Positions 3,850 through 38,769 of a stretch of 43,282 nucleotides of DNA are shown piece by piece (position 1 is the first letter of the stretch; each line of letters opens with the position of its first letter). The stretch is from Candidatus Woesearchaeota archaeon (GTDB lineage: Archaea > Nanobdellota > Nanobdellia > Pacearchaeales > GW2011-AR1): positions 1 through 43,282 of the forward strand of contig CAZUXN010000002.1 of assembly GCA_964624735.1 (NCBI GenBank). The letters are read 5' to 3'. The position numbers were made by a program, and so were the translations under genes. Under the pieces are notes generated by a model, which saw only the letters and a list, made by a program, of their open reading frames with translations, ran no database searches and was not told where the DNA came from.

Positions 3850-5607
3850 ATGGATTATTCAAAGATTTGCAGTGTTTATGCTGCATTAGAAGGAACGAGT
3901 AAGGGATTGGAGAAGACGGATATATTGGCGAAATTTTTAAGGAGGATTCGTGATGAGCCGGAGTTGATTTATCTTTTGCAGGGTCGGGTGTTTGCGGATT
4001 ATGATAATCGGGAATTGGGGATTTCGCATCAATTGATTATTAAGGCGATTGGTCGGGTGGCTGGAATTGGTGAGGATGTTGTTGTTGAGAAGTTTAAGGA
4101 ACTTGGGGATTTGGGGAAAGTTGTCGAGGCTGTTTTGGGAAGCAAAAAAAAACAAAAGGTTTTGTTTAAAGAAAAGTTGAGCGTTGAGAAGGTGATGGAG
4201 AATTTGCGGAAGGTTCCGACTTTTGAGGGGAAAGGGACTGTTGATTTGAAGATTGGGTTGATTGTTGAGTTGTTGCATTCGGCGACGCCGGAGGAAGCGA
4301 GGTATATTGTGCGGACTGTTTTGGGTGATTTGAAGATTGGGGTTGGTTCTGGGATTTTGAGGGACGCGATTGTTGTGTATTGTTTTGAGCCTAAAAATTT
4401 GGAAGACAAAAAGATTTGTGTTAAGGCTGTTCAGGAGGCGTATGATAAGGCGACAGATTTTGCTGAAGTTTTTGCGAAGGCGCGTGATGATTTGCTGGAG
4501 AAGATTAAGTTGGAGCCCGGGAAACCTGTGAAAGTTATGTTGTTTCCGAAGGCGAAGGATGTTGAAGATGCGTTTCGGATTGTTGGTCGGCCGGCGGCGT
4601 TTGAATATAAGTATGATGGGTTTAGAGTTATGGTGAATAAAACAGATGGCAGAGGACAGAGGGCAGAAGACAGGGTTAAGATTTTTACTCGTCGACTTGA
4701 GGAGGTTACTAAGCAGTTTCCTGAGATTGTTGAGTATGTTAATAGTTATGTGAAGGGAGAGAGTTTTATTTTGGATTGTGAGGTTGTTGGGTTTGATGCT
4801 GGGACTGGGAAGTATACGAATTTTCAGGCGATTAGTCAGAGGATTAAACGGAAGCATAGGATTGGTGAAATGATGGCGAAGTTGCCGGTTGAGTTGACAA
4901 TTTTTGATGTGATTTATTATGATGGGATTAGTTTGATTGAGACGGCGTTTAGCGAGAGGCGGGCTTTGATTGAAAAGATTGTTAGTGAGGACGAGAAGAG
5001 GATTGTTTTGGCGAAGCAGATTGTGACTGGCGACGATAAAGTTGTTGAGAAATTTTACGAGGAGGCGTTGAGTGAGAATCAGGAGGGATTGATGGGGAAG
5101 AGTTTGTCGGCGCCGTATAAACCTGGGGCTCGGATTGGTTATGCGGTGAAATTGAAGCCGGAGGATAATGATTTTGATTTGGTGATTATCGGGGCTGAGT
5201 GGGGGACGGGGAAGCGGGCTGGGTGGTTGACGAGTTTTGATGTGGCTTGTCAAAACTCGTCGCAGGTCGCAGGTCGCGATTCGCTGGTCGATGGGGAAGA
5301 TTTGAGCAGCAAAGGGAAGTTGTTGCAGGTTGGGAAAGTGTCGACGGGGTTGAAAGAGAAGCCCGAAGAAGGTTTGAGCTTTAAGGAGATGACTGATATG
5401 TTGGAGAAGTTGGTTGTTGAAGTTAAGGGGCGGAAGATTAAGGTTCGACCGGAGATTGTTGTGACGGTTCAGTATCAGAATGTGCAGAGGTCGCCGACGT
5501 ATTCTTCGGGTTATGCTTTGAGGTTTCCGAGGATTTTGGGGTTGAGGGAGGATAGGGGTGTTTCGGATATTGCGACGCTGGATGAAGTTGAGGAGGAAGC
5601 GGTTTGA
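3850..5607 (+). CDS. lig: ATP-dependent DNA ligase
   Basis: Adenylation motif EYKYDGFRV, and a DNA-binding/adenylation/OB order typical of archaeal Lig. The start is moved to MDYSKI (ATG 3850) rather than the track's upstream codon. Contains two repeat-derived inserts (see repeats). Confidence 0.9.
   Translation: MDYSKICSVYAALEGTSKGLEKTDILAKFLRRIRDEPELIYLLQGRVFADYDNRELGISHQLIIKAIGRVAGIGEDVVVEKFKELGDLGKVVEAVLGSKKKQKVLFKEKLSVEKVMENLRKVPTFEGKGTVDLKIGLIVELLHSATPEEARYIVRTVLGDLKIGVGSGILRDAIVVYCFEPKNLEDKKICVKAVQEAYDKATDFAEVFAKARDDLLEKIKLEPGKPVKVMLFPKAKDVEDAFRIVGRPAAFEYKYDGFRVMVNKTDGRGQRAEDRVKIFTRRLEEVTKQFPEIVEYVNSYVKGESFILDCEVVGFDAGTGKYTNFQAISQRIKRKHRIGEMMAKLPVELTIFDVIYYDGISLIETAFSERRALIEKIVSEDEKRIVLAKQIVTGDDKVVEKFYEEALSENQEGLMGKSLSAPYKPGARIGYAVKLKPEDNDFDLVIIGAEWGTGKRAGWLTSFDVACQNSSQVAGRDSLVDGEDLSSKGKLLQVGKVSTGLKEKPEEGLSFKEMTDMLEKLVVEVKGRKIKVRPEIVVTVQYQNVQRSPTYSSGYALRFPRILGLREDRGVSDIATLDEVEEEAV
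4641..4675. repeat. 7-nt-period array (AACAGAT GGCAGAG GACAGAG GGCAGAA GACAGGG) inside lig
   Basis: Read directly. Encodes ..TDGRGQRAEDR.. just after the KYDGFR motif, where Pyrococcus ligase (recalled: VHKDGDKIIVYSRRLE) is about 7 aa shorter. Confidence 0.7.
5229..5294. repeat. 12-bp perfect fold-back hairpin plus five 7-nt units inside lig
   Basis: GACGAGTTTTGA (5229-5240) / TCAAAACTCGTC (5250-5261) with a 9-nt loop, then TCGCAGG TCGCAGG TCGCGAT TCGCTGG TCGATGG (5260-5294). In frame (..QNSSQVAGRDSLVDGE..). Confidence 0.85.
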
Positions 5608-5750
5608 GGTCGCTGAGGGTTGCGACTTTGTCGCGATGGTTGGCATCTTTGATATCTGGGTCGGAAACGTTTATAAAGGAAATTTTTTATAGTATTTGAT
5701 GACAGTGGCGAAAAAAGTAAATTCTCTTGGAATTTTCATGTTTCCATTTT

Positions 5751-6350
5751 ATGTCTAAAATGAAAAAAGATACTTTTTTGAAGATTCAGAATATTGTTGC
5801 GACGACTTCTTTGGAAAAGGATGTTTCGTTGACGAAATTGGCGAGGACGCAGCCGAATACTGAGTATAATCCTGATACTTTTCCCGGGTTGGTTTTGAGG
5901 GTGAAGAAGCCGAAGAGTGCGGTTTTGGTTTTCTCGTCGGGGAATTTGGTTTGTACTGGGACAAAGTCGGTTGCGCAGGTTAAGGATGTTGTTCAGCAGG
6001 TGATTAGGCAGTTGAGGAAGATCGGGGTGAATGTGACGATTAAGCCGAAGATTACGGTGCAGAATGTTGTCGCGTCTGGGTCTATTGATTTGGATTTGAA
6101 TTTGAATGTTTTGGCTTTGGAGTTGGAAAATACGGAATATGAGCCGGAGCAATTTCCGGGGTTGGTTTACAAGTTGGATAATCCGACGGCGACTTTCTTG
6201 TTGTTTAGTAATGGGAAGTTGGTTTGTACTGGGACGAAGAATCGGGCGCAGTTAGATGATTCGATTGTGCAGTTAAATAAGAATGTTCGGGCGGCGTTGA
6301 AGAGGATTAAGGAGATGAGGAAGAAGAAGGGCGGGGAAGACGAATTTTAA
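5751..6350 (+). CDS. tbp: TATA-box binding protein
   Basis: Two TBP repeats (QNIVATTSL..FPGLVLR.. and QNVVASGSI..FPGLVYK..). Start set at MSKMKKD (ATG 5751). TATA-like TTTATAAA ~70 nt upstream. Confidence 0.9.
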   Translation: MSKMKKDTFLKIQNIVATTSLEKDVSLTKLARTQPNTEYNPDTFPGLVLRVKKPKSAVLVFSSGNLVCTGTKSVAQVKDVVQQVIRQLRKIGVNVTIKPKITVQNVVASGSIDLDLNLNVLALELENTEYEPEQFPGLVYKLDNPTATFLLFSNGKLVCTGTKNRAQLDDSIVQLNKNVRAALKRIKEMRKKKGGEDEF

Positions 6351-6507: not shown

Positions 6508-7473
6508 ATGAATGGCGAGGTGTTAATTCTTGCTGACCCGAAGGGGAATGCTTGGGATTTTGCGAAGAGCGTTTATGAGAAGTTGAATTCTAATCATGAG
6601 CGACTTGTGAAGTATCATCTTGGGAAAGTTGAGATTCGGAAGTTTAACGATGGTGAGATTTTTGTGAAGGTGTTGGTTAGTGTTCGGAAGAAGAGTTGTT
6701 TTTTTGTGCATGATTCGTCGATGGCGCCGCAAGATTGGGTTATGTCTTTGGTTGAAGTTAATGATGCGTTGGCTCGGAGTTCGGCTGAGATGATTTACAA
6801 TGTTTTGCCTTATATGAAATATTCGCGGCAGGAAAGGATGACTGAACCTCGGACGCCGATTAGTTCTGGTGTTTTGGCTGAGATGATTGGGTTGAAGTCT
6901 GACGGGGTGATAACTACTGATTTGCATAATCCTGCTATTACTGGGTCTTATAAAATTCCTTTTGATAATTTAAGAGCATATCTGACGATAATAAAATATC
7001 TTCATTATAGGTATCCGGATTTTTTGAAAAATCTTGTGATTGTTGCGCCGGATGTTGGGAGTGCGGAGATGGCAAATTCTTATGCTAAGAGGCTTGGTGG
7101 GAATGTTGCGATTACGAGCAAATCTCGCGAGAGAGCTGGGGTTGTTGGTGAGATGAAAGTTATTGGGGATGTAAGCGGGAAAAATGTTTTGATTGTCGAC
7201 GATATAATCGATACGGCTGGGACGCTTTGTAAAGCGGCTGGGATTTTGAGGTATAAGGGGGCGCTTAATATTTGGGCATGTGCGACTCATGGACTTTTTA
7301 GTGGAGAGGCTTTGGGCAAGTTGGATGCTTCATGTCTTGATAAAATAATAGTCAGTGATTCGATCCCGCAGGGGAGTTTGGGTAAAGTGGAGATTGTTTC
7401 TTTGGTTGATTTGTTTGCTGAGACGATTGGGCGGATTGTTCATGGGCGGAGCGTGAGTGAATTGTTTCGGTGA
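6508..7473 (+). CDS. prs: Ribose-phosphate pyrophosphokinase (PRPP synthetase)
   Basis: PRPP-binding loop VLIVDDIIDTAGT, VIVAPDVGS, N-terminal Prs domain. Start moved to MNGEVLIL (ATG 6508). Confidence 0.85.
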   Translation: MNGEVLILADPKGNAWDFAKSVYEKLNSNHERLVKYHLGKVEIRKFNDGEIFVKVLVSVRKKSCFFVHDSSMAPQDWVMSLVEVNDALARSSAEMIYNVLPYMKYSRQERMTEPRTPISSGVLAEMIGLKSDGVITTDLHNPAITGSYKIPFDNLRAYLTIIKYLHYRYPDFLKNLVIVAPDVGSAEMANSYAKRLGGNVAITSKSRERAGVVGEMKVIGDVSGKNVLIVDDIIDTAGTLCKAAGILRYKGALNIWACATHGLFSGEALGKLDASCLDKIIVSDSIPQGSLGKVEIVSLVDLFAETIGRIVHGRSVSELFR

Positions 7474-7536
7474 AATAATTCACTCAAGGCAGTAGGCAAT
7501 AGGTTGCTTCGCTTGTGGGTAGTAGGTTTGAGATAG

Positions 7537-8527: not shown

Positions 8528-9376
8528 TTAATTAATTAAATGTTTTAGAACTTCGTCTTTCATTGCTTGGATTGGAGGCTCGATGCCGAGCCAGATTCTT
8601 AGGGACTCTGCGCCTTGGTGGACGAGCATATTTACTCCTGATATTGTTTTGCAACCGATTGCTTCTGCGTCTTTGATTAGTTTTGTTTTTAGTGGGTTAT
8701 AAACAGCGTCGAAGATTATGTGATTTGGTTTTAGGAGTTTTTTTGGGATTGGGGAGTGTTCGGTGTTTGGATGCATCCCGATTGAGGTTGTGTTTACTAT
8801 GATGTCTGTTTCTGGTAATTGGTTATTAGTTATTAGTTGTTCGTAGTCGATTATTTTTGCGTTTATGTTTAGTTGTTGGTTTAAGTTGATTGCTTTTTGT
8901 TTGGTTCGGTTTGTTAGGGTTATGTTTGCGTTGTTGTTTTTTAGTGAGATTAGGATTGCTCTTGATACTCCTCCAGCTCCGATGACGAGGGCGTTTTTGT
9001 TTTCGAGATTTATGTTTTCTTCTTTTAGGGAGTTTTGGAAACCTGTCGCATCGGTATTATGGCCGATGGCTTTTGGGGTATCGGTGTTCGGTGTGTCGTG
9101 GTGTCGGATATATTTGATGGTGTTTACGGCTTGAATTTGTTTTGCTTCGTTTTTTATTTCGTCGAGGTGTTTCATCACTTCGACTTTGTGTGGGATTGTG
9201 ACGTTTAGTCCGTCGTAGGGGTTTGATTTTATGAAGTCTTTTAGGTCTTCTGGTTTGACGTCGATGGCGTCGTAGGTGTGTGGGAGATTTAGTTCTTTGA
9301 AGACAGCTTCATGCATTGGTTTTGATAGGGAGTGTGCGATTGGGTGACCGATGACTCCGAATTTTTTTGGGTTCAT
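8528..9376 (-). CDS. aroE: Shikimate 5-dehydrogenase
   Basis: GVIGHPIAHSLSKPMHEAVF, AVNT...GHNTD, GAGGVSRAI Rossmann motif. 282 aa. Confidence 0.85.
   Translation of the reverse strand: MNPKKFGVIGHPIAHSLSKPMHEAVFKELNLPHTYDAIDVKPEDLKDFIKSNPYDGLNVTIPHKVEVMKHLDEIKNEAKQIQAVNTIKYIRHHDTPNTDTPKAIGHNTDATGFQNSLKEENINLENKNALVIGAGGVSRAILISLKNNNANITLTNRTKQKAINLNQQLNINAKIIDYEQLITNNQLPETDIIVNTTSIGMHPNTEHSPIPKKLLKPNHIIFDAVYNPLKTKLIKDAEAIGCKTISGVNMLVHQGAESLRIWLGIEPPIQAMKDEVLKHLIN
9049..9108. repeat. 6-bp hairpin plus 7/8-nt-period TCGG array inside aroE (antisense to the gene)
   Basis: CATCGG (9049-9054) / CCGATG (9063-9068), then ..TCGGTGT TCGGTGT GTCGTGGT GTCGGAT (9081-9108). Encodes HHDTPNTDTPKA between AVNT and G.NTD, about 8 aa longer than E. 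coli AroE as recalled. Confidence 0.6.
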
Positions 9377-10521: not shown

Positions 10522-11328
10522 ATGGAAAAGGGAAAAAAATCGGAAGTCGGAAGTCGGAAGTCGGAAGGAATAATTGGGACGACAAAAAAGACTGAGGTTA
10601 AAGAAGTTAAGAAGCTGGATGATGTTAAAGATAGTCTTGAGAATAAGGCGGCATTGGCAGCACACTCTGGTGTACCATCTGAGGATGGCAAAGCTGAGGG
10701 GAAAAGTAGCTCACGGATTACACAGATTAATACGGATTCTGAAAAAGGAAAATGGAAATCTAAGAAGGACAAAAAAAAGGAAGTTGTTGAGTTGGAGAGG
10801 GAGTATGTTGTGCCGTTGAGGCGTGGTTTTTTGAATGTGCCAAAGCATAAGAGGGCGAAGAAGGCAGTTAAGGTTTTGAAAGAGTTTATGGTTCGACATA
10901 TGCGTGTTCGTGATGGGGATTTGAGAAAAGTGAAGATTGATGGTTATTTGAATAATGAAATTTGGTTTAGGGGGATTAAGAAACCGATGGGGAAAATTAA
11001 AGTCCGGGCTAGGAAGATTGATGGGATTGTTTATGTTGAATTGGCTGAGATTCCTGATGTTGTGAAGTTTGTGAAGTCGCGTGAAGAGAAGCGGAAGTTG
11101 GCAGCTGAGAAAATTAAGCCAAAGAAGGTTAAGGCTGAGAAGGAAGTTGTTGACGAAGATAAAGATAAGGATGGGGTTGATGATAAGAAGGAGGAGGCTG
11201 AGGATAAGAAGGCTGGGGCTGAGAAGGCGGCGAAGGTTGAGAAAGCGGTTTCTAAGGAGATGAAGCATACGGCTCAAGGGAAGCATTTGAAGAAGACGAT
11301 GCCGGTTCGGAAGGCGCTCAAAAAATAA
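10522..11328 (+). CDS. rpl31e: 50S ribosomal protein L31e (eL31) with ~90-aa N-terminal and K/E-rich C-terminal extensions
   Basis: Core EREYVVPLRRGFLNVPKHKRAKKAVKVLKEFMVRHMRV...IWFRGIKKPMGKIKVRA. There is no in-frame ATG between 10522 and the core, so the true start is uncertain (TTG near 10789 is possible). Confidence 0.75.
   Translation: MEKGKKSEVGSRKSEGIIGTTKKTEVKEVKKLDDVKDSLENKAALAAHSGVPSEDGKAEGKSSSRITQINTDSEKGKWKSKKDKKKEVVELEREYVVPLRRGFLNVPKHKRAKKAVKVLKEFMVRHMRVRDGDLRKVKIDGYLNNEIWFRGIKKPMGKIKVRARKIDGIVYVELAEIPDVVKFVKSREEKRKLAAEKIKPKKVKAEKEVVDEDKDKDGVDDKKEEAEDKKAGAEKAAKVEKAVSKEMKHTAQGKHLKKTMPVRKALKK
10540..10567. repeat. Four perfect TCGGAAG units
   Basis: TCGGAAGTCGGAAGTCGGAAGTCGGAAG read directly, 18 nt after the rpl31e ORF start. 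Confidence 0.9.
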
Positions 11329-11345: not shown

Positions 11346-11445
11346 TTAGAGCGGCTTCGCTTTGTAGAACGCTTCGCTTGTAGAACGGAAAAATTTTAAT
11401 TTTTCCTCGTAGAACGAAAAGACTTTGTCTTTTCTTGTAGAATGA
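11346..11445. repeat. Intergenic array of GTAGAAC heptamers separated by unrelated perfect hairpins
   Basis: GTAGAAC at 11364, 11380 and 11409, GTAGAAT at 11438, TAGAGC at 11347. Intervening GCTTCGC (x2), GGAAAAATT-TT-AATTTTTCC and GAAAAGAC-TTT-GTCTTTTC. Confidence 0.8.
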
Positions 11446-13007: not shown

Positions 13008-13885
13008 AAGATATTAAGGAATTGTTAGATTTTGGCTTGATTAATATTGATAAGCCGGCGGGGCCGACGTCGTTTTCGGTGAGTGAGTTTATTCGGAGGC
13101 AACTTGGATTGTCTAAGACTTCGCATATGGGGACGCTTGACCCGAAGGTGACTGGGGTTTTGCCGATTACTTTGGGGCGGGCTTGTAAGTTGGCGGGATA
13201 TTTTATTAAGCATGATAAGAGTTATATTGGGGTTTTGGAGACGCATCGGGAGTGTGATATTGTTGAGTTGCAGAAGTTGATTGATGAGAATTTTGTTGGG
13301 AAGATTAAGCAAACGCCGCCGCATCGGTCGGCTGTGCTTCGAAAAGAAAGAACACGAGAGGTGTTCTTTTGGAAACTTTTCGAAGCGGGGTGTCGGGATT
13401 CGGGGTGTCGGGATGTCGGTGACTTGGGCAACAGAAGTAAGAGTTTTTTGTTTGAGTGTAAGGTTGAAGGTGGGACTTATATTAGGAAGTTGTGTTCGGA
13501 CTTGGGCGGGATGATTGGTGGGGCACATATGGGGGAATTGCGGAGAACTAAGGCTGGGATTTTTAATGAAGAGAAAATTTATTCGCTTTATGAATTTGAG
13601 AGGGCAGTTGAATCGTGGAAGAATGGGGATGATGGTTTATTGAAGGAAATGATTGTGTCGGCGGATGATGCGATTCGCGAGGTTTTGCCTGTGGTTGAAG
13701 TTGATAAGTCTGCTTTGGCGTCTTTGTATGTTGGTCGACCGTTGCTGAAGTTTAATGTTGTTGGTGGGGTTGATGTTGAGACTGGGGAGGTTTTTGCTTT
13801 GTTTTGTGGAGATGTTTTTGTTGGGGTTTATATGAGGAGTGGTGAGGAAGCTGTTTTTGGGCGTGTTGAGTTTGTGAAGAATTGA
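13004..13885 (+). CDS. cbf5: tRNA/rRNA pseudouridine synthase Cbf5 (TruB family) with PUA domain
   Basis: GLINIDKPAGPTSFSVSEFIRR..SHMGTLDPKVTGVLPI (catalytic Asp), GGTYIRKL, C-terminal PUA-like region. Confidence 0.9.
   Translation: MKDIKELLDFGLINIDKPAGPTSFSVSEFIRRQLGLSKTSHMGTLDPKVTGVLPITLGRACKLAGYFIKHDKSYIGVLETHRECDIVELQKLIDENFVGKIKQTPPHRSAVLRKERTREVFFWKLFEAGCRDSGCRDVGDLGNRSKSFLFECKVEGGTYIRKLCSDLGGMIGGAHMGELRRTKAGIFNEEKIYSLYEFERAVESWKNGDDGLLKEMIVSADDAIREVLPVVEVDKSALASLYVGRPLLKFNVVGGVDVETGEVFALFCGDVFVGVYMRSGEEAVFGRVEFVKN
13337..13428. repeat. 19-bp interrupted fold-back hairpin plus 7/8-nt-period TCGGG array inside cbf5
   Basis: CTTCGAAAAGAAAGAACAC (13337-13355), loop GAGAG, GTGTTCTTT (13361-13369), bulge TGGAAA, CTTTTCGAAG (13376-13385). 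Then CGGGGTG TCGGGAT TCGGGGTG TCGGGAT GTCGGTG ACTTGGG. Encodes ..EAGCRDSGCRDVGDLGN.., absent from M. jannaschii Cbf5 as recalled. Confidence 0.8.
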
Positions 13886-24552: not shown

Positions 24553-24569
24553 CCTAGTCCCAGACTAGG
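24553..24569. other. Perfect 7-bp hairpin between the VR-like and TR-like repeats
   Basis: CCTAGTC-CCA-GACTAGG flanked by GGGG/T-run on the + strand (A-run/CCCC on the minus strand). Confidence 0.6.
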
Positions 24570-24627
24570 GGTTTTTTGAAGAATTTTAGGCTTTTAATTA
24601 TTGTTGTATTCTAAAATATATATTAAC

Positions 24628-25335
24628 CTATTTTTTCGAGCCGACGCCTTCGGCGTGAACCAGCCCCACCCGGCCATCGCCGCCCGAATCCGCGAGATTG
24701 TCGTTCCAGACGATCAGGTTGCCGTCGCCCACATATAGCCTCGACAATCCGGTCCGTTTTGTAAAAACTTTAATCTTAGTACCATCAAACTCTATTTTTT
24801 TTTCGTTATTTGAATAGGCGAATCTTGGGTCTATGATTATTTGTGTTTCATCTGTTTCTACAAATTTGTATCCTTGTTTGGTATTTGCTTCGGCTATTCT
24901 TAATCCGATAAATCTTGCTGGGTTTTCTGAGTCGTAAGATATATTACCTTGGTTTTTTGCTATACCTGCTAAGTTAGTTGATGGTTGGGATACATCGTTT
25001 GAGTAAAGTATTGCTTCTTTTATGTCGGCGTATATTCCTTCGAATGGGTTTATATTGTTGGCTTGCCCATGGGCGATTATTCTTACTGCGTCTTCTAGGG
25101 ATAGGGTTGCTATATTTGTTCCTTTTAGGAGTTCTGTTGTTGCTATTACGAAGGGTAGACTTGAGCCTGTGGCGTTTTCTATATTGAATCCGGAGTTCAT
25201 GATTGTTTTGTATCCTGGTGAATCTTTACCAAATCTTCCGATTAGAAAATCATTTACCCTTTGATACATAGATAAATCTGCTTGTATAATTCTTAATCCA
25301 TTTGTTGCGGGGATATCTATGTTTAGGTTTGCCAT
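24628..25335 (-). CDS. Hypothetical protein; candidate former DGR target (VR-like C-terminus)
   Basis: 235 aa, no recognised fold. The last ~35 aa (SRLYVGDGNLIVWNDNLADSGGDGRVGLVH..) are encoded by a locally GC-rich stretch repeated at 24362-24434. Confidence 0.6.
   Translation of the reverse strand: MANLNIDIPATNGLRIIQADLSMYQRVNDFLIGRFGKDSPGYKTIMNSGFNIENATGSSLPFVIATTELLKGTNIATLSLEDAVRIIAHGQANNINPFEGIYADIKEAILYSNDVSQPSTNLAGIAKNQGNISYDSENPARFIGLRIAEANTKQGYKFVETDETQIIIDPRFAYSNNEKKIEFDGTKIKVFTKRTGLSRLYVGDGNLIVWNDNLADSGGDGRVGLVHAEGVGSKK
24676..24748 (-). repeat. Variable-repeat-like copy (inside the CDS 3' end)
   Basis: See 24362-24434. There are 14 mismatches, 7 of them at adenines of the RT-proximal copy. 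Confidence 0.6.
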
Positions 25336-27813: not shown

Positions 27814-27864
27814 ATGGAGAAGAAGCTTAGGATTTTGGCTGCGGCAGATTTGCATGGGAACGCG
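27814..27864 (+). pseudogene. Ghost copy of the metallophosphoesterase 5' end
   Basis: ATGGAGAAGAAGCTTAGGATTTTGGCTGCGGCAGATTTGCATGGGAA (MEKKLRILAAADLHGN), versus real 27969.. ATGGTTGGGAAACTTAGAATATTAGCTGCTGCGGATTTACATGGGAG (MVGKLRILAAADLHGS). Confidence 0.8.
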
Positions 27865-27928
27865 TTTCGCTAGCTGTTCGGTGTTCGCTATTCGGTGTTA
27901 GCTTAAGTGTTGCGCGGTTCGTCCGCGC
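27864..27928. repeat. 7-nt-period array flanked by a palindrome and a GC hairpin
   Basis: AACGCGTT palindrome (27859-27866). GTTTCGC TAGCTGT TCGGTGT TCGCTAT TCGGTGT TAGCTTA AGTGTTG. Then GCGCGG-TTCGT-CCGCGC (27912-27928) plus TTTT. Confidence 0.8.
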
Positions 27929-30021: not shown

Positions 30022-32211
30022 ATGGTTAAGAAGAATGCGACCTTGATTATTACAGAGAAACCGGCGGCGGCGGAGAAGATAGCGGCGGCTTTGAGTGGGG
30101 CGACTGATGAGAAGATTACGAATAAGGATAAGGTTTCGTATTATGAGTTTTACAAGGGAAGTCGGAGATATATTATTGGATGTGCGGTTGGGCATTTGTT
30201 TGGGATTCAGCAGATTGCGAAGAGGGGGCCGTTTCCTAATTTTGAGGTTGAGTGGAGGGCGTCTTATAATAAGAAGGGTGGGGCTTTTACTGAGAAGTAT
30301 TTGAGAGTTTTGAAAAAGTTGGCGAAGGAATGTGATGAGTTTATTGTTGCAACGGACTTTGATGTCGAGGGAGAGGTGATTGGTTGGAATGTTGTGCGGT
30401 TTGTTTGTGGAAAGAAGGATGCTAAAAGGATGAAGTTTTCTTTGTTGACGAAGGAGGCGTTGGATAAGTCGTTTGAGAATTTGTTGCCGACGCTTAATTG
30501 GGGCGCGGCGATTGCGGGGGAGACTCGACATTATATTGATTGGTTTTATGGGATTAATTTGTCGCGGGGTTTAATGAAGGCGTTGAGCTCGACTGGGACT
30601 TTTAGGATTTTGTCGATTGGTCGGGTTCAGGGGCCGGCGTTGAAGATTGTTGCGGACAGGGAGAAAGAGATTCGGGATTTTGAGTCGGAGCCGTATTGGA
30701 ATGTGTTTTTGCAGGTTCAGGATTCGAAGGGGCAGAGAGTTGAGGTGAAGCATCCGAAGGATATTTTTAAAGAGAGTGAGTTGTTGAAGTTTAAGCATTT
30801 GCAGGGGAAGAAAGGTGTTGCTTCTACGAAGATTAGTGACGATGAAGTTAAGGCGCCTGTTCCTTTTGATTTGACGACGCTGCAGACTGAGGCGTACAAG
30901 AATTGTGGGTTTACTCCGACGCAGACTTTGAAGGCGGCGCAGAATTTGTATTTGGCTGGGGCGATTTCGTATCCGAGGACTTCGAGCCAGAAGTATGATG
31001 CGTCGATTGGGTATGATAAGATTTTGAAGAATTTGAAGAAGTATACGACGGCTGTGAAATATGCGGTGAATTCGAAACCGACCGAGGGGACTAAGGTTGA
31101 CCCGGCGCATCCTGCGATTTATCCTACTGGTGAAGCTAAGAAAATTCCTGAGAGGGATAAGAAAATTTATGATTTGATTGTTAAGCGGTTTATTGCTTGT
31201 TTTTGTGATTCGGCTTTGGTTGAGAATAAGAGGATTAAGGTTGTTGTGAATGGTTTGGATTTTGGTGCGAAGGGAGTGCAAATTAAAGAGAAGGGTTGGA
31301 TGAATGTTTATCCGCATGGGACTAAGGAGTCGAAGGTTCCGACGATGAATGGGGATGTTGATGTTTTGGAGATTCGGACCGAGGAGAAAGAGACGAAACC
31401 GCCAAGAAGATATTCTGCTGCGTCGTTGGTTAAGGAGTTGGAGAAGAGGAATTTGGGGACGAAGGCGACTCGGGCGGCGATTGTTGAGACTTTGTATTCT
31501 CGGGGTTATGTTAGGGAGAAGAGTATTGAGGTTACGGAGTTGGGGATGAGAATGGAAGAAACGCTTGAGAAATATTCGCCGATTATTTTGGATGAGAAGC
31601 TTACTCGAGCTATGACTGAAGAATTAGAGAAGCTCGAGTCGGTATTCGGTATTCGGGGTGTCGGGGTGTCGGAGCTTGATAAGTTGAAGAAAGGTGAGAA
31701 GAAAATTTTGGATGAGGCGAAGGTTGTTGTGACGAAGATTGCCGAGGGGATGAGCGCTAATTTGGATAAGATGGGGAAGTCACTTGCTGATGCGAATGCG
31801 GTTGTTTGGGAGCAGGAGAAGGAGGCGAATACAATGAGCGAGTGTCCAGTTTGTCATAAAGGGAAGTTGAGGGTTATGTATGGGAAAAAATTTGGGAGAT
31901 ATTTTGTTTCGTGTGATGCTTATCCGGAGTGCAAGACGATTTATTCTTTGCCGCCGCGTGGTGCTATGCGCCCCGCGAGAAGACAGACGACAGAGGACAG
32001 AGGACAGAGGACAGAGGAGTTGGAGATGTGTGAGGAGTGTGGGTTTCCGAAGGTTGCGGCGTTCAAGAAAGGTGGGGCGCCTTGGAGGTTTTGTTTTAAT
32101 CCGGCGTGTCCGTCGAATGCGGAGTTGACGAAGAAGAAGGAAGAGTTTAAGGCGAAGATTGCGAGTGGTGAGATTAAGGTTGATGAGGATGGGAAGGTTG
32201 TTGAGAATTAG
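30022..32211 (+). CDS. topA: Type IA DNA topoisomerase
   Basis: TOPRIM (LIITEKPAAAEKIA, ATDFDVEGE), active-site region GAISYPRTSSQ, C-terminal Zn ribbons (CPVCHKG..CDAYPEC, CEECGFP..CFNPAC). Start moved to MVKKNATL. Confidence 0.9.
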   Translation: MVKKNATLIITEKPAAAEKIAAALSGATDEKITNKDKVSYYEFYKGSRRYIIGCAVGHLFGIQQIAKRGPFPNFEVEWRASYNKKGGAFTEKYLRVLKKLAKECDEFIVATDFDVEGEVIGWNVVRFVCGKKDAKRMKFSLLTKEALDKSFENLLPTLNWGAAIAGETRHYIDWFYGINLSRGLMKALSSTGTFRILSIGRVQGPALKIVADREKEIRDFESEPYWNVFLQVQDSKGQRVEVKHPKDIFKESELLKFKHLQGKKGVASTKISDDEVKAPVPFDLTTLQTEAYKNCGFTPTQTLKAAQNLYLAGAISYPRTSSQKYDASIGYDKILKNLKKYTTAVKYAVNSKPTEGTKVDPAHPAIYPTGEAKKIPERDKKIYDLIVKRFIACFCDSALVENKRIKVVVNGLDFGAKGVQIKEKGWMNVYPHGTKESKVPTMNGDVDVLEIRTEEKETKPPRRYSAASLVKELEKRNLGTKATRAAIVETLYSRGYVREKSIEVTELGMRMEETLEKYSPIILDEKLTRAMTEELEKLESVFGIRGVGVSELDKLKKGEKKILDEAKVVVTKIAEGMSANLDKMGKSLADANAVVWEQEKEANTMSECPVCHKGKLRVMYGKKFGRYFVSCDAYPECKTIYSLPPRGAMRPARRQTTEDRGQRTEELEMCEECGFPKVAAFKKGGAPWRFCFNPACPSNAELTKKKEEFKAKIASGEIKVDEDGKVVEN
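31603..31675. repeat. 9-bp inverted repeat plus 7/8-nt-period TCGG array inside topA
   Basis: ACTCGAGCT (31603-31611) / AGCTCGAGT (31631-31639), then TCGGTAT TCGGTAT TCGGGGTG TCGGGGTG TCGGAGC (31639-31675). Encodes ..ESVFGIRGVGVSE.. Confidence 0.75.
31977..32018. repeat. Six 7-nt units GAGAAGA CAGACGA CAGAGGA x4 inside topA
   Basis: 42 nt = 14 codons (..RRQTTEDRGQRTEE..) between two Zn-ribbon modules. The unit is nearly the same as in the lig array at 4641-4675. Confidence 0.85.
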
Positions 32212-32959: not shown

Positions 32960-33708
32960 AATAGTCCGCGTTTTCTTATTCCGGTGTTGATAATTTCGAA
33001 TGCTAATTCTTTGACTGGGAGAGAGCGGTGTTTTTTTAGGATGAGTTTTCTTTTGTTGTTGTAGCCTTTGAGTTCGATTAGGCATTTGGACCAGTATTTT
33101 AGGAGGTCGCCGCCGACCATGGAAACGGAACGCTCTAGCGTTCCGTCGCTATTAGCTATTAGCTGTTTGCTTTTAGGTAAGAATTGGGAGTAGACTTGGT
33201 TTGTTACGATTACTGGGATATTTTGTTTTCTTGCGATTTCGTTTAAGGTTCTTAGTTGTTTTGCAAGTTTTCGGTTTACTTCTGAAATTTTTTCGTTGTT
33301 TTTTGATTGTATCGCTTCGCCGAGTTCGAGTCGGTAGAGCATTGCGATGCTGTCTATTATAATTAATGATATGTTTTCTTTTTTGACGTGTTTAAGCATT
33401 TGGTTGAAGGCTTTTTCTTGTTCTGTGAACGAGGTTGGCTTTAAGAGAAAAATGCTTTGAAGGGCGGCATCGATTTCTTCTTTTGTGCCTTGGTGAATTT
33501 GTTTGAAACGTTCGGTTGAGAATCCACCCTCGGTATCGATGAATATTACTTTGTTTCCTTTTCTGGCTTGGGATGTTGCGACGATGACGCAGAGGTTTGA
33601 TTTGCCTGAGCCGCCGGGGCCGTAGAGGGTCGTGATGATGTCGGTTTCGTAGCCGCCTTGGAGGAAGGTGTTTAGTTCGTATGAGCCGGCTGAGATTTTA
33701 TTGGTCAT
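32956..33708 (-). CDS. radB: RadB-like RecA-superfamily ATPase
   Basis: Walker A LYGPGGSGKSNL, Walker B-like LIIIDS. Start moved to MTNKISAGSYELN (ATG 33708), overlapping the upstream stop. Confidence 0.65.
   Translation of the reverse strand: MTNKISAGSYELNTFLQGGYETDIITTLYGPGGSGKSNLCVIVATSQARKGNKVIFIDTEGGFSTERFKQIHQGTKEEIDAALQSIFLLKPTSFTEQEKAFNQMLKHVKKENISLIIIDSIAMLYRLELGEAIQSKNNEKISEVNRKLAKQLRTLNEIARKQNIPVIVTNQVYSQFLPKSKQLIANSDGTLERSVSMVGGDLLKYWSKCLIELKGYNNKRKLILKKHRSLPVKELAFEIINTGIRKRGLF
33127..33179. repeat. 7-bp perfect hairpin plus five 7-nt units inside radB-like gene (antisense to the gene)
   Basis: GGAACGC-TCTA-GCGTTCC (33127-33144), then GTCGCTA TTAGCTA TTAGCTG TTTGCTT TTAGGTA (33145-33179). 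Encodes ..KQLIANSDGTLERSVS.. Confidence 0.8.
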
Positions 33709-36935: not shown

Positions 36936-38131
36936 TATAATATTTGGGTTATCTCCAAAATATTTTTTAGTTCTGATAATAGTCTGTCTTCGTAGATTGT
37001 AATTTTTTCGTCTTCATTTTTTTCTATAGAGAGCGCTGTTATTAGTTGTGGTAAATATTTATTGAAATTTGTTGGATTTTTTTGCGAGTATTCATTCAAA
37101 ATTTTTCGTTCGATATTTTCGATATTATCTGTTAGGGATGATTCCATTTCAAACTCTGATTCTTGGACTTTGATTGAAGAAATGTTTCTGAGGAAAATGT
37201 ATGCTTGTTTCTTTTTTATGAATTCTTCTATTTCATTAAATCTAATGTCGCCGGTTTTCCCTTGAGTTAAAACTCCTCTTAGTTTTAATAAAACAATTTT
37301 GTTATTTAAATTGTGTTTATCTAATTCCGATATTATTTTTTGTGTTGCTATTAGTGCATTTGTGATTTCGATTTCGATTGAAACAACTTCTTTTATTGGA
37401 ATTTTGATGTTTTGTGTTTTTATTTTTCCGTTGGTGATTTCGCATAATTGGAAACTTCCATATTTTAAATCTGTTAGTTCTTGGAAGTTGTTTGGAAATG
37501 TCGGGCCAGGATAAATATAGCATGAGTTGTCTTCTCTTGTTTCAAAGATTTGGTGGATGTGCCCCATTGCATAGTAGTTTGATAGCGGGAGTTTGTGTTT
37601 TTCGATTGAATCCATTGGGATTGTCCCGATTACATCTTTGATTGTTGTGTGAATCATTAAGATTGTGAATGGATGTATTGATTCGAAATAGATTTTTTGG
37701 AGGTCTTCGATTTCCATTCCGGATTTTCTGCCGGGATATCCGTAGATTGCTATGTCGTCGTGCATTTGTGGTTTTAATTTTATTTTTCCGTCTTTTTGAT
37801 ATTCCCAGTTCTCGATATTCTTACAGAAGCCTGCTTTTTCTAGAACGTCTAAAAATGTCTTTCCTGAGGCTGAGAAGTCGTGTGAGCCGGCGATTAGGTA
37901 TACTGGGATTTTGGCGTCGTGGAGTTTTTTGAATTCTGCGAAAGATTCTTTTAGGATTTCGATTGGTGGGTATGCTGAGTCGAAGAGGTCGCCGGCAATT
38001 AGAATAAAGTCTACTTTTTCTTGAATACATAATTCGATTATTTTTTTGAAGGATTGGAAGTTTAGTTTTTGGAGTTCTTCTTGGCGCCAGCTTCCGAGGT
38101 GGCAGTCTGCTAAGTGTGCGAATTTTGTCAT
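36935..38131 (-). CDS. mre11: Mre11 nuclease
   Basis: HLADCHLG, AGDLFD, AGSHD, MIHTT, GHIH phosphoesterase motifs. Its stop overlaps the rad50 start. Confidence 0.9.
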   Translation of the reverse strand: MTKFAHLADCHLGSWRQEELQKLNFQSFKKIIELCIQEKVDFILIAGDLFDSAYPPIEILKESFAEFKKLHDAKIPVYLIAGSHDFSASGKTFLDVLEKAGFCKNIENWEYQKDGKIKLKPQMHDDIAIYGYPGRKSGMEIEDLQKIYFESIHPFTILMIHTTIKDVIGTIPMDSIEKHKLPLSNYYAMGHIHQIFETREDNSCYIYPGPTFPNNFQELTDLKYGSFQLCEITNGKIKTQNIKIPIKEVVSIEIEITNALIATQKIISELDKHNLNNKIVLLKLRGVLTQGKTGDIRFNEIEEFIKKKQAYIFLRNISSIKVQESEFEMESSLTDNIENIERKILNEYSQKNPTNFNKYLPQLITALSIEKNEDEKITIYEDRLLSELKNILEITQIL

Positions 38132-38172
38132 GGTTAGTAAAATTCTGGTTTGTTTATAAGGATTATTGGGGT

Positions 38173-38769
38173 TTAGTTTTGAAATTGTAGGATTAACAAT
38201 TCTTCCATAAATATTTTTTTCTTGGCGACGATTTTTGGGTTGTATTTTTTTATTCTGTTTATTGGGGTTAGGGTTGAGATTAGGAGGAATATTTTGCCGT
38301 TTTTGGTTAAATGTTTTTTTGCTTGTCTTAGGAATTTGATTGAAATTTCGTCGCCGTGTTTGCCGCCGGTTGTTGCAAGTTGTGAATCTTTTGGTTCTTT
38401 TTTATCGAAGGGGAGATAGGGAGCGTTGAATACTATCAAATCGAAACGATTTGATGTTGTTGGTTTTTGGTTTTTGGTTGTTGGTAATGGAATGTTTTTG
38501 AATAAGTTGGATTTTATTGCTTTGAATCCTTTTTGTTTTAGGAGTTTTACCGATTTTAGGTTGATGTCTATTGGGGTTATATTTTTTTTGTTTAGGAATT
38601 TTGAGGCTGTTTCTGATAGGATACCTGAGCCAGTGCCCATGTCTAACATTTTTATTGAAGATAAAAATGTGGGTGTTGGGTAGTGGGTGTTGGGTTGTAG
38701 GCTTTTGAGATATTTTTTTAGAAAGTTCGCGAAGAAGTATGAGTCTTCGGCTGTTTGATAAATTTCCAT
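38173..38769 (-). CDS. HemK/PrmC (Mtq2)-like SAM-dependent methyltransferase
   Basis: SAM motif LDMGTGSGIL and FNAPY (NPPY variant). Confidence 0.7.
   Translation of the reverse strand: MEIYQTAEDSYFFANFLKKYLKSLQPNTHYPTPTFLSSIKMLDMGTGSGILSETASKFLNKKNITPIDINLKSVKLLKQKGFKAIKSNLFKNIPLPTTKNQKPTTSNRFDLIVFNAPYLPFDKKEPKDSQLATTGGKHGDEISIKFLRQAKKHLTKNGKIFLLISTLTPINRIKKYNPKIVAKKKIFMEELLILQFQN
38435..38490. repeat. 9-bp perfect hairpin plus five 7-nt units inside the methyltransferase gene (antisense to the gene)
   Basis: ATCAAATCG-AAA-CGATTTGAT (38435-38455), then GTTGTTG GTTTTTG GTTTTTG GTTGTTG GTAATGG (38456-38490). Encodes ..PLPTTKNQKPTTSNRFD.. Confidence 0.85.

What the first reader, a model, noticed from the sequence alone, without database searches (positions are those of the whole stretch)
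4641..38490. Recurrent fold-back hairpin plus 7-nt-period arrays, in-frame in essential genes, with one fixed chromosomal polarity
At six sites a perfect inverted repeat (6-19 bp arms) is followed immediately, on its higher-coordinate side, by 4-6 tandem units with a 7-nt (sometimes 8-nt) period. The sites are lig 5229-5294, aroE 9049-9108, cbf5 13337-13428, topA 31603-31675, the radB-like gene 33127-33179 and the methyltransferase 38435-38490. Arrays with a weak or no hairpin occur at 4641-4675, 10540-10567, 23986-24020, 27864-27912 and 31977-32018. The units differ between sites (TCGCAGG, TCGGTAT, TTAGCTA, GTTTTTG, TCGGAAG, CAGAGGA). So this is not one MITE consensus, yet the period and layout recur. 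Inside CDSs the reading frame is preserved even though 7 is not a multiple of 3, and at least three arrays (lig 4641-4675, aroE, cbf5) lie where recalled homologues have shorter loops. The hairpin-left/array-right order holds for three plus-strand and three minus-strand genes. Polarity therefore follows the chromosome (replication direction?) rather than transcription. I know of no described element class with this architecture. The nearest analogies are cyanobacterial STRR heptamers and in-frame Rickettsia RPEs.
Basis: partly seen in the sequence, partly recalled or inferred. Interest (0 to 1): 0.85.

Follow-up and report, generated by a model that had tools for sequence, protein, structure and literature searches.

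The report
Polar hairpin-plus-heptamer inserts in archaeal genes
In a small group of DPANN (Pacearchaeota-like) archaea with extremely lopsided DNA strands, short runs of 7-base repeats, often starting at the foot of a DNA hairpin, have been written in-frame into housekeeping genes, always in the same direction along the chromosome. This looks like the footprint of an unusual strand-specific replication error process, not a mobile element.

Summary
Period-7 arrays are about 8 times more common than in shuffles; other periods are not. Perfect hairpins are about 5 times enriched. Across five array-rich relatives (102 kb), 13 of 41 hairpins carry an adjacent 7-nt array on the right and none on the left. 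In 1.26 Mb of other relatives the count is 0 of 532.

The order holds for + and − strand genes. Orthologues show the arrays are lineage-specific inserts, or once a replacement, at recurrent hot spots. The arm on the low-coordinate side is usually conserved host codons; the other arm plus the array is new. One array is a local 7-mer amplified from 1 to 4 copies. Array density rises with GC skew. Independent assemblies agree, so this is not an artefact.

My best reading is template-switch (fold-back) hairpin creation plus hairpin-associated 7-nt slippage on the G-rich strand, filtered by selection for in-frame, stop-free inserts. The link to replication direction is untested, because every site lies on one skew arm. 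Heptamer repeats and template-switch hairpins are each known; their polar coupling inside core genes is not.

The parts
4641..4675 (+). Degenerate ACAGAGG-type heptamer array in DNA ligase (site 1), no hairpin. It encodes GRGQRAEDR, roughly 6 residues more than insert-free orthologues.
   Evidence: TRF; ligase alignments; codon alignment. L079 has a perfect (ACAGAGG)4 at the same site; L083, L003, L006 and L029 have none.
5229..5261 (+). Perfect hairpin in ligase (site 2) with 12-bp arms: GACGAGTTTTGA / TCAAAACTCGTC. The left arm is the conserved LTSFD codons. The right arm is new sequence encoding QNSS.
   Evidence: DNA fold z -4.4.
5259..5294 (+). TCGCAGG/TCGCTGG heptamer array starting at the hairpin base. 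Together with the right arm it adds about 18-20 residues after FDVAC.
   Evidence: TRF.
7454..7486 (+). Perfect 10-bp hairpin (longer with mismatches) spanning the stop codon of the PRPP-synthase gene.
   Evidence: fold z -5.8. L004 has a different 16-bp hairpin at the same gene end.
7487..7530 (+). Intergenic AGGCAGT-type heptamer array starting at the hairpin base. It contains stop triplets.
8807..8851 (+). ATTAGTT-type heptamer array inside aroE (a - strand gene), without a hairpin.
   Evidence: TRF; lag scan. L083 has (GTAGTTT)4 and L079 a GGTTTTT-type array in the same part of aroE.
9050..9069 (+). Weak 6-bp hairpin CATCGG/CCGATG in aroE. Both arms are conserved codons, so it is probably a natural quasi-palindrome.
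   Evidence: fold z -1.6.
9082..9108 (+). TCGGTGT-type 7/8-nt array in aroE, about 10 residues more than L003, L006 and L050.
   Evidence: L079 and L083 carry different hairpins and arrays at the same site.
10540..10567 (+). Perfect (TCGGAAG)4 near the N-terminus of ribosomal protein L31e. It is a local amplification of a 7-mer present once in L003, adding 21 nt (7 residues).
   Evidence: TRF; codon alignment.
13336..13386 (+). Nested hairpin in cbf5 with outer arms of 11 bp and inner arms of 9 bp. Both arms lie in conserved coding sequence, changed from the consensus AVKRE..KLLEA to AVLRK..KLFEA.
   Evidence: fold z -6.3. L029 has the same hairpin with two compensatory pair changes.
13386..13424 (+). 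GGGGTGTC/GGGATTC 7/8-nt array at the hairpin base, adding about 13 residues (GCRDSGCRDVGDL).
   Evidence: TRF.
23986..24020 (+). TAGCTAT-type heptamer array immediately upstream of the start codon of eRF1 (a - strand gene).
   Evidence: TRF. Relatives carry other arrays (GTTTTTG, GTTATTA) at the same place, often after an ATCAGC..GCTGAT hairpin.
27864..27912 (+). TCGGTGT/TAGCTGT 7/14-nt array just upstream of the start codon of a class I (Val/Ile-type) tRNA synthetase gene (- strand).
   Evidence: TRF.
31603..31639 (+). 9-bp hairpin ACTCGAGCT/AGCTCGAGT with a 19-nt loop in topA (site 1). Both arms are conserved codons; thermodynamically marginal.
   Evidence: fold z -0.9. L087 has the same array without this hairpin.
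31639..31675 (+). Composite array (TCGGTAT)2(TCGGGGTG)2 in topA, adding about 10 residues (FGIRGVGVSE). Its 29-nt core also occurs in the ligases of L172 and L173.
   Evidence: TRF.
31977..32018 (+). (AGAGGAC)5.9 array in topA (site 2). It replaces about 13 residues found in orthologues and does not add length.
   Evidence: TRF.
33125..33146 (+). Perfect 9-bp hairpin ACGGAACGC/GCGTTCCGT in the RadB-like gene (- strand). The left arm is the conserved ER.V codons.
   Evidence: fold z -4.4. L148 has the same hairpin with a different array.
33147..33179 (+). GCTATTA-type heptamer array at the hairpin base, about 6 residues more than the consensus.
   Evidence: TRF.
38435..38455 (+). Perfect 9-bp hairpin ATCAAATCG/CGATTTGAT in the methyltransferase gene (- strand). 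The left arm is the conserved FDLI codons.
   Evidence: fold z -4.2.
38456..38490 (+). GTTGTTG/GTTTTTG heptamer array at the hairpin base, adding about 13 residues (PLPTTKNQKPTTS).
   Evidence: TRF.
38646..38670 (+). Perfect 10-bp A/T-rich hairpin in the methyltransferase gene.
   Evidence: fold z -6.5.
38670..38700 (+). GGGTGTT heptamer array at the hairpin base. Array plus hairpin add 12 residues, shared with L148 and L087 only.
   Evidence: TRF.

Best explanation
These are footprints of a lineage-specific, strand-asymmetric replication error process. They are not a mobile element.

Step 1 (inferred). The 3' end of the nascent strand that carries the G-rich (+) sequence switches template over a short range, folding back on itself. 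It copies 8-16 nt of the sequence just behind it. This either adds a new right-hand arm or converts a quasi-palindrome into a perfect one.

Step 2 (inferred). At the 3' base of such a hairpin, or at a chance 7-mer seed, synthesis stutters in steps of 7 nt (sometimes 8). This builds a short tandem array. One alternative variant fits the polarity of the arrays equally well, though not the making of the new right arm. In it, a hairpin extruded on the long-lived single-stranded G-rich lagging-strand template stalls the polymerase arriving from its 3' side, and the stall causes repeated slippage there.

Step 3 (shown by pattern). Selection keeps only products that preserve the frame, have no stop codon and encode mostly small or hydrophilic residues in permissive loops, or that lie between genes. 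Arrays then decay, get replaced or re-expand, while hairpins persist longer.

The same mutational regime that makes the strand extremely C-poor probably underlies the process.
For: POLARITY AND SPECIFICITY.
- In array-rich loci, 13/41 hairpins have a lag-7 array directly on the right and 0 on the left. No other lag shows this. In 1.26 Mb of other relatives the count is 0/532.
- Starting from arrays instead, hairpins with arms >=8 lie 13 on the 5' side and 0 on the 3' side of the G-rich array strand.
- With looser calling and a 55-nt window the counts are 15 against 5 for arms >=8 and 11 against 2 for arms >=9. Left-side hairpins (arms >=8) split 8 in + genes, 6 in - genes and 1 intergenic.

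FOLD-BACK SIGNATURE.
- On the + strand the left arm is conserved host codons and the right arm is new. This holds for lig, L148 topA, the PRPP-synthase gene end, the RadB-like gene, the methyltransferase site at 38435, and aroE of L079 and L083. The set includes both gene orientations.
- In lig, right arms match each lineage's own synonymous codons: ACGAG..CTCGT in the window against ACCTC..GAGGT in L005.
- Multi-base compensatory differences occur in cbf5 (window against L029) and aroE (L079 against L083). Template switching is known to produce such changes in one step (PMC8794818).

SLIPPAGE SIGNATURE.
- The L31e array is a local TCGGAAG amplified from 1 to 4 copies.
- Orthologous sites carry different arrays next to the same hairpin: RadB in the window against L148, and upstream of eRF1.
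- Period-14 sub-structure is present.

SELECTION FILTER.
- Array consensus units in + strand genes are mostly stop-free on the + strand, and intergenic arrays often contain stops.
- Units differ by gene strand: TCGG.. and ACAGAGG in + genes, GGTTKTT in - genes.

LINK TO STRAND ASYMMETRY.
- Period-7 density correlates with |GC skew| over 116 loci (Spearman 0.46, p 2e-7). Periods 8-11 do not.

CONTROLS.
- Heptamer arrays in unrelated viral contigs show no hairpin polarity: 4 against 5 for arms >=7.

BACKGROUND.
- Archaeal PolB and PolD slip on repeat DNA, possibly triggered by secondary structure in it or upstream of it, as cited in PMC9879509. I did not read the primary paper.
Against: - Nothing here explains why the step is 7 nt.
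- The 29-nt composite TTCGGTATTCGGGGTGTCGGGGTGTCGGA is identical at non-orthologous sites: topA of the window and L087, and lig of L172 and L173. Purely local slippage does not explain this easily. It suggests copying between loci or strongly channelled units.
- About half of the arrays have no hairpin.
- Near-identical strains show no unit-number variation, so the process is not fast.
- Close relatives with similar skew have no or few arrays: none in L003, one each in L006 and L017.
- Replication direction was never tested, because only one skew arm was available.
- The correlation with skew is not corrected for phylogeny.
Confidence: 0.5

Rival explanations
1. Functional polar DNA signals. 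The hairpin with a G/T-rich single-stranded heptamer tail would be a cis-acting element read on one DNA strand. Possible roles are lagging-strand priming or restart, or orientation of the chromosome for segregation. These would be analogous in logic to ssi/primosome assembly hairpins or to skewed polar motifs. Selection would maintain the element even inside genes.
For: - Strict chromosomal polarity independent of transcription.
- Hairpins are conserved with compensatory changes while the adjacent arrays turn over.
- Arrays stay unpaired 3' of the stem in predicted folds.
- Density is roughly one per 3 kb in the window.
- Arrays are stable among strains.
Against: - Arms and units share no sequence.
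- Many arrays lack hairpins.
- Sites are present in some close relatives and absent in others (L003).
- Some hairpins have decayed, such as the lig hairpin of L079.
- Arrays degenerate.
- Template switching can mimic covariation without selection (PMC8794818).
- No protein partner was identified.
Confidence: 0.15
2. Scars of error-prone break repair. Double-strand breaks or nicks at recurrent fragile sites, possibly TCGA-containing palindromes, would be repaired by fold-back priming plus iterative microhomology-primed filler synthesis. This would leave an inverted copy and a short tandem filler.
For: - Hot spots are hit repeatedly with different products: lig FDVAC, topA site 1 and aroE.
- One array replaces sequence (topA site 2).
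- A whole hydrolase domain is inserted at the ligase hot spot in P0076 and L029.
- TCGA is enriched 2.8-fold in the 30 nt upstream of arrays, 32 against 11.3 expected, and is not enriched downstream.
- Short fold-back inverted insertions of 5-34 bp at breaks are documented in yeast (PMC11724301, abstract seen).
Against: - A two-ended break should give both mirror orientations, but the adjacent counts are 13:0.
- The TCGA enrichment is partly a by-product of hairpins needing C in a C-poor strand.
- No nuclease or restriction system was identified.
Confidence: 0.15
3. Copied-in sequence from a trans-acting source. This could be a non-autonomous repeat family spread by template switching between arrays. 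It could also be repeats written by a dedicated enzyme, such as a reverse transcriptase or primase-polymerase working from a short template in a telomerase-like way.
For: - An identical 29-nt composite array occurs at non-orthologous sites in different lineages.
- A small set of units recurs (ACAGAGG, TCGGAAG, TCGGGGTG, GGTTKTT).
- Retroelements are present: RT-16 RNA and a DGR remnant in the window, and a full RT gene in L083.
Against: - Hairpin arms are host codons.
- There are no terminal repeats, target duplications or family consensus.
- At least 12 different units occur in one 43-kb window.
- The L31e array is demonstrably a local amplification.
- Heptamer arrays of control units are equally common in unrelated viral contigs: 14 loci for ACAGAGG against 17 and 6 for two permuted controls. 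Unit recurrence therefore needs no special template.
- The DGR template and variable repeats contain no heptamers.
Confidence: 0.1
4. Assembly or sequencing artefact, or chance low-complexity sequence in a three-letter-like strand.
For: The strand is strongly C-poor, which raises chance repetition somewhat.
Against: - Local dinucleotide shuffles do not reproduce the period-7 excess or the hairpins.
- The same arrays appear in independent assemblies from other samples and pipelines.
- Homologous arrays appear in related species.
Confidence: 0.01

Closest known systems
Heptanucleotide simple-sequence repeats of bacteria: cyanobacterial STRR and GGGGA(T/C)T of Nostoc, GGGAATC of Xanthomonas, TAACTGA of Beggiatoaceae
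   Same: Tandem 7-nt units in short arrays of a few to tens of copies, and a genome-specific abundance. Heptamers are noted as over-represented among prokaryotic SSRs (PMC4692102). Some units here (GGGATTT, AGGGGTT, GGGTGTT) are G-tract heptamers like the quadruplex-forming ones.
   Different: - The bacterial repeats have one or a few consensus units per genome.
- They are about 90% intergenic.
- In Xanthomonas they show no leading/lagging preference (PMC4692102).
- Here there are many units, most arrays sit in-frame in housekeeping genes, all lie on one strand, and a third start at a hairpin base.
Template-switch mutations / quasi-palindrome correction (Ripley model; Monttinen and Loytynoja, PMC8794818)
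   Same: New sequence is the reverse complement of adjacent sequence. Perfect stems are made or repaired in one event, which gives apparent multi-base compensatory changes.
   Different: Template-switch mutations are not described as coupled to a tandem array at the stem base. They are also not reported with an all-or-none strand polarity at this density inside core genes.
Fold-back inverted insertions at DNA breaks in yeast (PMC11724301) and polymerase-theta-type templated insertions
   Same: Very short inverted duplications are primed by microhomology next to a free 3' end. Repeated rounds of synthesis can give direct repeats.
   Different: That process is break repair, seen experimentally in eukaryotes. 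It has no heptamer periodicity and no expected strand polarity.
Borg tandem repeats in Methanoperedens extrachromosomal elements (PMC9879509)
   Same: Archaeal, genome-specific, rapidly evolving tandem repeats arise locally and add disordered segments to proteins without breaking frames. Polymerase slippage possibly triggered by secondary structure is proposed for them.
   Different: All Borg repeats inside genes have unit lengths divisible by three. Borg repeats are long, near-perfect and A-rich, with no adjacent fold-back hairpin. Here the unit is 7 nt, so all three frames are read in turn.
Rickettsia palindromic elements (RPE); comparison from my own knowledge
   Same: Palindromic DNA inserted in-frame into conserved protein genes at tolerated positions.
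   Different: RPEs are 100-150 bp copies of a family consensus.

Membership tests
Heptanucleotide SSR / STRR-type repeats | Head-to-tail repeats with a 7-nt unit | tested here: met
   TRF; period-7 excess over shuffles.
Heptanucleotide SSR / STRR-type repeats | One or a few genome-wide consensus units | tested here: not met
   At least 12 distinct consensus units in the window and over 30 across 11 array-rich loci.
Heptanucleotide SSR / STRR-type repeats | Predominantly intergenic location, no replication-strand preference (as described for Xanthomonas and Nostoc) | tested here: not met
   76 of 96 arrays lie inside long ORFs. In the array-rich loci the arrays are G-rich on the + strand; the 19 C>G arrays in the wider set are A/T-rich low-complexity runs from other lineages. 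Comparison text from PMC4692102.
MITE / RPE-type inserted palindromic elements | Copies share a family consensus, with terminal inverted repeats belonging to the element | tested here: not met
   Hairpin arms differ at every site, and the left arm is orthologous host coding sequence.
MITE / RPE-type inserted palindromic elements | In-frame presence inside conserved genes, absent from orthologues | tested here: met
   Ligase, aroE, cbf5, topA, RadB-like and methyltransferase alignments.
Template-switch (fold-back) mutation | Novel segment is the reverse complement of immediately adjacent pre-existing sequence | tested here: met
   Right arms are the reverse complement of conserved upstream codons in lig, L148 topA, the RadB-like gene, the methyltransferase, and aroE of L079 and L083.
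Template-switch (fold-back) mutation | Clustered multi-base changes that keep or create pairing in one step | tested here: inconclusive
   Compensatory differences in cbf5 (window against L029) and aroE (L079 against L083) fit this. No ancestral reconstruction was done, so selection on structure is not excluded.
Replication-oriented (leading/lagging) feature | Orientation flips between replichores at origin and terminus | not testable with these tools
   All array-rich DNA obtained has positive skew. The only negative-skew stretch (window 1-2400) carries no arrays. Every assembly found ends inside that gene.
Phase-variable contingency SSR | Unit-number polymorphism within populations | tested here: not met
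   No heptamer indels among contigs 99.9-100% identical from 4 to 8 assemblies; only a poly-G length change was seen. Read-level data were not available.
Borg-type genic tandem repeats | Unit length divisible by three inside ORFs | tested here: not met
   Units are 7 or 8 nt. The Borg rule comes from PMC9879509.
Known structured RNA family | Match to an Rfam covariance model at the hairpins | tested here: not met
   The Rfam scan gives only a tRNA and RT-16 RNA, both elsewhere in the window.

The most novel reading that the evidence does not exclude
The hairpin with a heptamer tail would be a genuine strand-specific DNA-level system of these ultra-small archaea. One form is a cis-signal read on the single-stranded G-rich template, for example for priming or restart of discontinuous synthesis or for chromosome orientation. 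The other form is the product of a dedicated enzyme that caps a folded-back 3' end and writes 7-nt repeats, a telomerase-like healing inside the chromosome. Protein-coding genes would merely tolerate it.
Probability: 0.15. Interest if true: 0.9.

Novelty: new variant of a known kind. Interest (0 to 1): 0.66.

Why it matters
- It would be a clear natural example of a polar, strand-specific insertion process that writes new peptide segments into essential genes. The affected genes include DNA ligase, topoisomerase, Cbf5, a RadB-like ATPase, shikimate dehydrogenase and ribosomal protein L31e.
- The repeat unit is not a multiple of three, so each array is read in all three frames.
- It ties an extreme GC skew (G about 3 times C in co-oriented genes) to a second, structural mutational signature. 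That gives a handle on how DNA is replicated in uncultured DPANN archaea.
- Practically, these inserts will distort alignments, phylogenies and indel-based markers for this group.
- The hairpin covariation they create can be mistaken for selected RNA structure.

Tried and rejected
OPPOSITE REPLICHORE.
- I looked for it through the ribosomal protein L15e gene beside the skew switch. All six contigs stop inside the Cys-rich gene at the window's left end.
- Arrays with C>G on the + strand in related loci turned out to be A/T-rich low-complexity runs in other lineages, not mirror images.

POPULATION POLYMORPHISM. None was found in arrays.

SPECIAL TEMPLATE. I tested whether recurring units point to one. 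Two composition-matched control heptamers are as frequent in viral contigs as ACAGAGG, so I rejected this as evidence.

GENERALITY OF THE HAIRPIN LINK. Heptamer arrays in viral contigs do not share the hairpin association.

RETROELEMENT AS SOURCE. The RT-16 RNA / DGR remnant contains no heptamers in its template region.

STRUCTURE PREDICTION. The AlphaFold2 ligase model has mean pLDDT 58.9, too poor for more than a weak statement. Both inserts fall between strands; the site-2 insert has pLDDT below 50 (473-488), while the site-1 insert lies in a block averaging about 79.

KNOWN RNAs. The Rfam scan found no known RNA at the hairpins. The bacterial promoter/terminator scan was uninformative for an archaeon.

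LITERATURE. Searches for DPANN or Pacearchaeota with GC skew, heptanucleotide repeats or hairpin insertions found no description of this architecture. The library is incomplete, so this is not proof of absence.

Full report
CONTEXT. The window comes from an uncultured DPANN archaeon. Its ligase and other proteins are closest to MAGs labelled Pacearchaeota, Nanoarchaeota or Woesearchaeota, and the same DNA occurs in JGI metagenome 3300031654 and other assemblies. From about 2.4 kb onward the + strand is extremely G-rich and C-poor. GC skew is +0.45 to +0.56 where genes are on the + strand. It is still +0.18 to +0.36 where genes are on the - strand (base counts). The asymmetry therefore has a large component that does not depend on transcription.

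CHECK OF THE OBSERVATION: ARRAYS. In a lag-k identity scan, period 7 (9 segments against 1.07 expected) and its double, period 14 (8 against 0.57), stand far above local dinucleotide shuffles. Periods 4, 5, 8-11, 13 and 16 do not; periods 12, 15 and 21 are only modestly raised.

CHECK OF THE OBSERVATION: HAIRPINS.
- A scan for perfect inverted repeats confirms the hairpins.
- Hairpins with arms of 9 bp or more are 4-5 times more frequent than in shuffles.
- Six of eight sites fold as single-stranded DNA far better than shuffles.
- The aroE hairpin (6-bp arms, 12-nt spacer) and the topA hairpin (19-nt loop) are marginal.
- Gene identities are confirmed by Pfam.
- Contigs assembled independently from other samples are identical through the lig and cbf5 arrays, so this is not an assembly artefact.

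SPECIFICITY AND POLARITY. I fetched 80 ligase loci from GTDB genomes and 79 topA loci from metagenomes, about 2.4 Mb in all.
- Period-7 arrays are concentrated in a subset of lineages: the window, L004, L079, L029, L083/L087, L147, L115, L116, L141 and L148. They are nearly absent elsewhere, including the close relative L003.
- In five array-rich loci (102 kb), 13 of 41 perfect hairpins have a lag-7 array starting at their right base. None has one on the left, and no other lag shows this. In the remaining 1.26 Mb none of 532 hairpins does.
- Starting from arrays oriented by their G-rich strand, hairpins with arms >=8 lie 13 on the 5' side and 0 on the 3' side.
- With looser calling and a 55-nt window the counts are 15 against 5. 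The right-side cases are mostly non-adjacent, and some look like gene-end terminators.
- Left-side hairpins (arms >=8) sit 8 in + strand genes, 6 in - strand genes and 1 intergenic. The order is thus independent of transcription.
- Heptamer arrays in unrelated viral contigs show no such association.
- Array density rises steeply with |GC skew| across 116 loci (Spearman 0.46, p 2e-7), while other periods do not. This is not corrected for phylogeny.

ANATOMY FROM ORTHOLOGUES. The ligase has a base length of 561-562 residues in most relatives. Variable low-complexity inserts cluster at a few hot spots. In the window, inserts relative to array-free orthologues occur in these genes:
- lig, at two sites;
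- aroE;
- L31e;
- cbf5;
- topA site 1;
- the RadB-like gene;
- the methyltransferase, at two sites.
The topA array at 31977-32018 instead replaces about 13 residues.

The rule for the arms is as follows. On the + strand the left arm is conserved host coding sequence: LTSFD in lig, ER.V in RadB, FDLI in the methyltransferase, I(V/F)G in aroE of L079 and L083, and ELE in L148 topA. The loop-proximal right arm plus the array is the new DNA. This holds whichever strand the gene is on.

A second class has both arms inside conserved codons, made complementary by substitutions. It comprises cbf5, window topA, and L083 cbf5 site 2. The array again starts at the right base.

EVIDENCE FOR RECURRENT EVENTS AND TURNOVER.
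- Orthologous sites carry different products. There are three different hairpin/array combinations at one aroE site (window, L079, L083). There are two different hairpins and arrays at topA site 1 (window/L087 against L148). There are different registers at the PRPP-synthase gene end (window against L004).
- The same hairpin can carry different arrays, as in RadB (window against L148) and upstream of eRF1.
- The L31e array is a local 7-mer, single-copy in L003, amplified to four copies. That adds 21 nt and so stays in frame.

MECHANISM. The right arms are reverse complements of the sequence just upstream and track each lineage's own codon usage. This is the signature of short-range template switching, that is, fold-back of a 3' end travelling left to right on the + strand. 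Template switching is known to create perfect stems and multi-base compensatory changes in one event (PMC8794818). It can therefore explain the covariation seen in cbf5 and aroE without selection for structure.

The arrays behave like slippage products:
- a local seed is amplified;
- 14-nt sub-repeats occur;
- arrays turn over and decay;
- their starting point is pinned to the 3' base of a hairpin.

Two variants fit the position of the arrays. In the first, the nascent G-rich strand stutters after folding back or after a hairpin forms behind the polymerase. In the second, the G-rich strand is the long-exposed lagging-strand template. This is the usual explanation for G over C excess, taken from general knowledge. 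A polymerase arriving from the 3' side would then stall at the stem base and slip there. Only the first variant also accounts directly for a new right arm copied from the left one.

Selection explains the rest:
- frames are preserved;
- array consensus units in + strand genes are mostly stop-free on the + strand;
- units depend on gene strand (TCGG.. and ACAGAGG in + genes, GGTTKTT in - genes);
- stop-containing units occur mainly between genes or are limited to two copies.

Why the step is 7 nt remains unexplained. Heptamers are, however, noted as the over-represented long SSR class in prokaryotes (PMC4692102). They are also common in viral contigs whatever the unit.

WHAT DOES NOT FIT NEATLY.
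- A 29-nt composite array is identical in topA of the window and L087 and in lig of L172 and L173. (GGGGTGTC)4 also recurs at another ligase site. This suggests copying between arrays or strongly channelled outcomes.
- TCGA is enriched 2.8-fold just upstream of arrays. This may reflect the need for C in stems, or fragile CpG palindromes.
- A complete alpha/beta-hydrolase domain sits at the ligase hot spot in P0076 and L029, flanked by array-type linkers. The hot spots therefore accept larger insertions too.
- These points keep break repair and trans-templated models alive at low probability.
- A functional polar signal also cannot be excluded. Hairpins outlive arrays and polarity is absolute. 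The lack of any shared sequence and the patchy presence among close relatives argue against it.

COMPARISON WITH KNOWN SYSTEMS. The arrays are heptanucleotide SSRs by form. They fail the other features of STRR, Xanthomonas or Beggiatoa repeats, namely a single consensus, intergenic location and no strand preference. They are not MITEs or RPEs, because there is no consensus and the arms are host codons. They differ from Borg repeats, whose genic units are always multiples of three. The hairpins qualify as template-switch products by the reverse-complement criterion. The coupling of the two with fixed chromosomal polarity inside core genes is, as far as my searches go, undescribed.

VERDICT. It is best read as a new, polar mutational signature of a DPANN subclade, not a new mobile element class. 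The claimed link to replication direction is plausible but untested.

Noticed in passing
window 1-43282 (switch near 2200-2600): GC skew is extreme, +0.2 to +0.56 over 2-kb windows from 2 kb onward. It reverses to -0.3 to -0.6 in 1-2400, across an AT-rich gap (GC 0.22-0.25 at 1950-2400). This may be a replication origin or a terminus. Many related MAG contigs also show |skew| of 0.3-0.5.
   Followed up: partly
window 24065-24748 (- strand): A remnant of a diversity-generating retroelement. RT-16 RNA (RF03019, 83.8 bits) lies at 24434-24569. A 64-nt template-like repeat at 24371-24434 matches a variable-like repeat at 24685-24748, near the 3' end of ORF 24628-25335, at 86% identity. Five of the 9 differences fall at template adenines. 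The downstream ORF 24065-24433 looks to me like a truncated RT C-terminus; this rests on inspection only, since Pfam gave no hit. L083 has the same RNA next to a full RVT_1 gene, and L087 and L148 have the RNA as well.
   Followed up: partly
window 2487-2730: Rfam finds a tRNA (51 bits, 126 nt, so it contains an intron) that ARAGORN misses. Directly after it comes an inverted copy of its T-arm (2586-2598 / 2615-2627). A 14-nt direct repeat of its 3' end (CCTGGCAGTCTCAT) occurs at 2600-2613 and 2710-2723. This could be an integration scar or another fold-back event.
   Followed up: no
P0076 and L029 11400-12300 (ligase): Two related ligases carry a complete alpha/beta-hydrolase domain of about 200 residues (PF06821 in P0076). 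It is inserted in-frame at the same FDVAC hot spot and flanked by heptamer-array-encoded linkers.
   Followed up: no
window 1-2100 (- strand): A large Cys-rich, probably secreted protein gene with G/S/T-rich low-complexity linkers. All six independent assemblies retrieved through the neighbouring ribosomal protein L15e gene end inside or short of it. This suggests a hypervariable or repetitive region.
   Followed up: no
window 30484-30535 versus L162: A contig from a sister sample lacks about 55 nt of topA, between short direct repeats. This frameshifts the gene, so it is either a defective variant or a low-coverage assembly error.
   Followed up: no
window 7506, 11354, 11371 and 6 other sites: GCTTCGC is the complement of GCGAAGC, which I recall as a very stable DNA mini-hairpin (from memory, not checked here). 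It occurs 9 times against 2.6 expected, three of them in intergenic repeat clusters. At 11354-11442 it is part of 16- and 29-nt repeats carrying two small hairpins downstream of the L31e gene. It also sits next to arrays in L004, L029, L116 and L147.
   Followed up: partly
30 nt upstream of arrays in 13 array-rich loci: The palindrome TCGA is enriched 2.8-fold (32 against 11.3 expected) upstream of arrays but not downstream. It often appears as TTCGAA, CTCGAG or GTCGAC within stems or loops.
   Followed up: partly
L048 15461-15519, 15895-15936, 18377-18419: A low-GC Pacearchaeota MAG carries AACAGTT/TTAACTG-type heptamer arrays. To my eye they resemble the TAACTGA repeats of Beggiatoaceae, and I recall similar repeats in cyanobacteria. 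No sequence comparison was run.
   Followed up: no
L083 12028 versus L085/L086: The only indel among near-identical strains is a one-base change in a poly-G run. It alters a small ORF from 101 to 83 residues.
   Followed up: no
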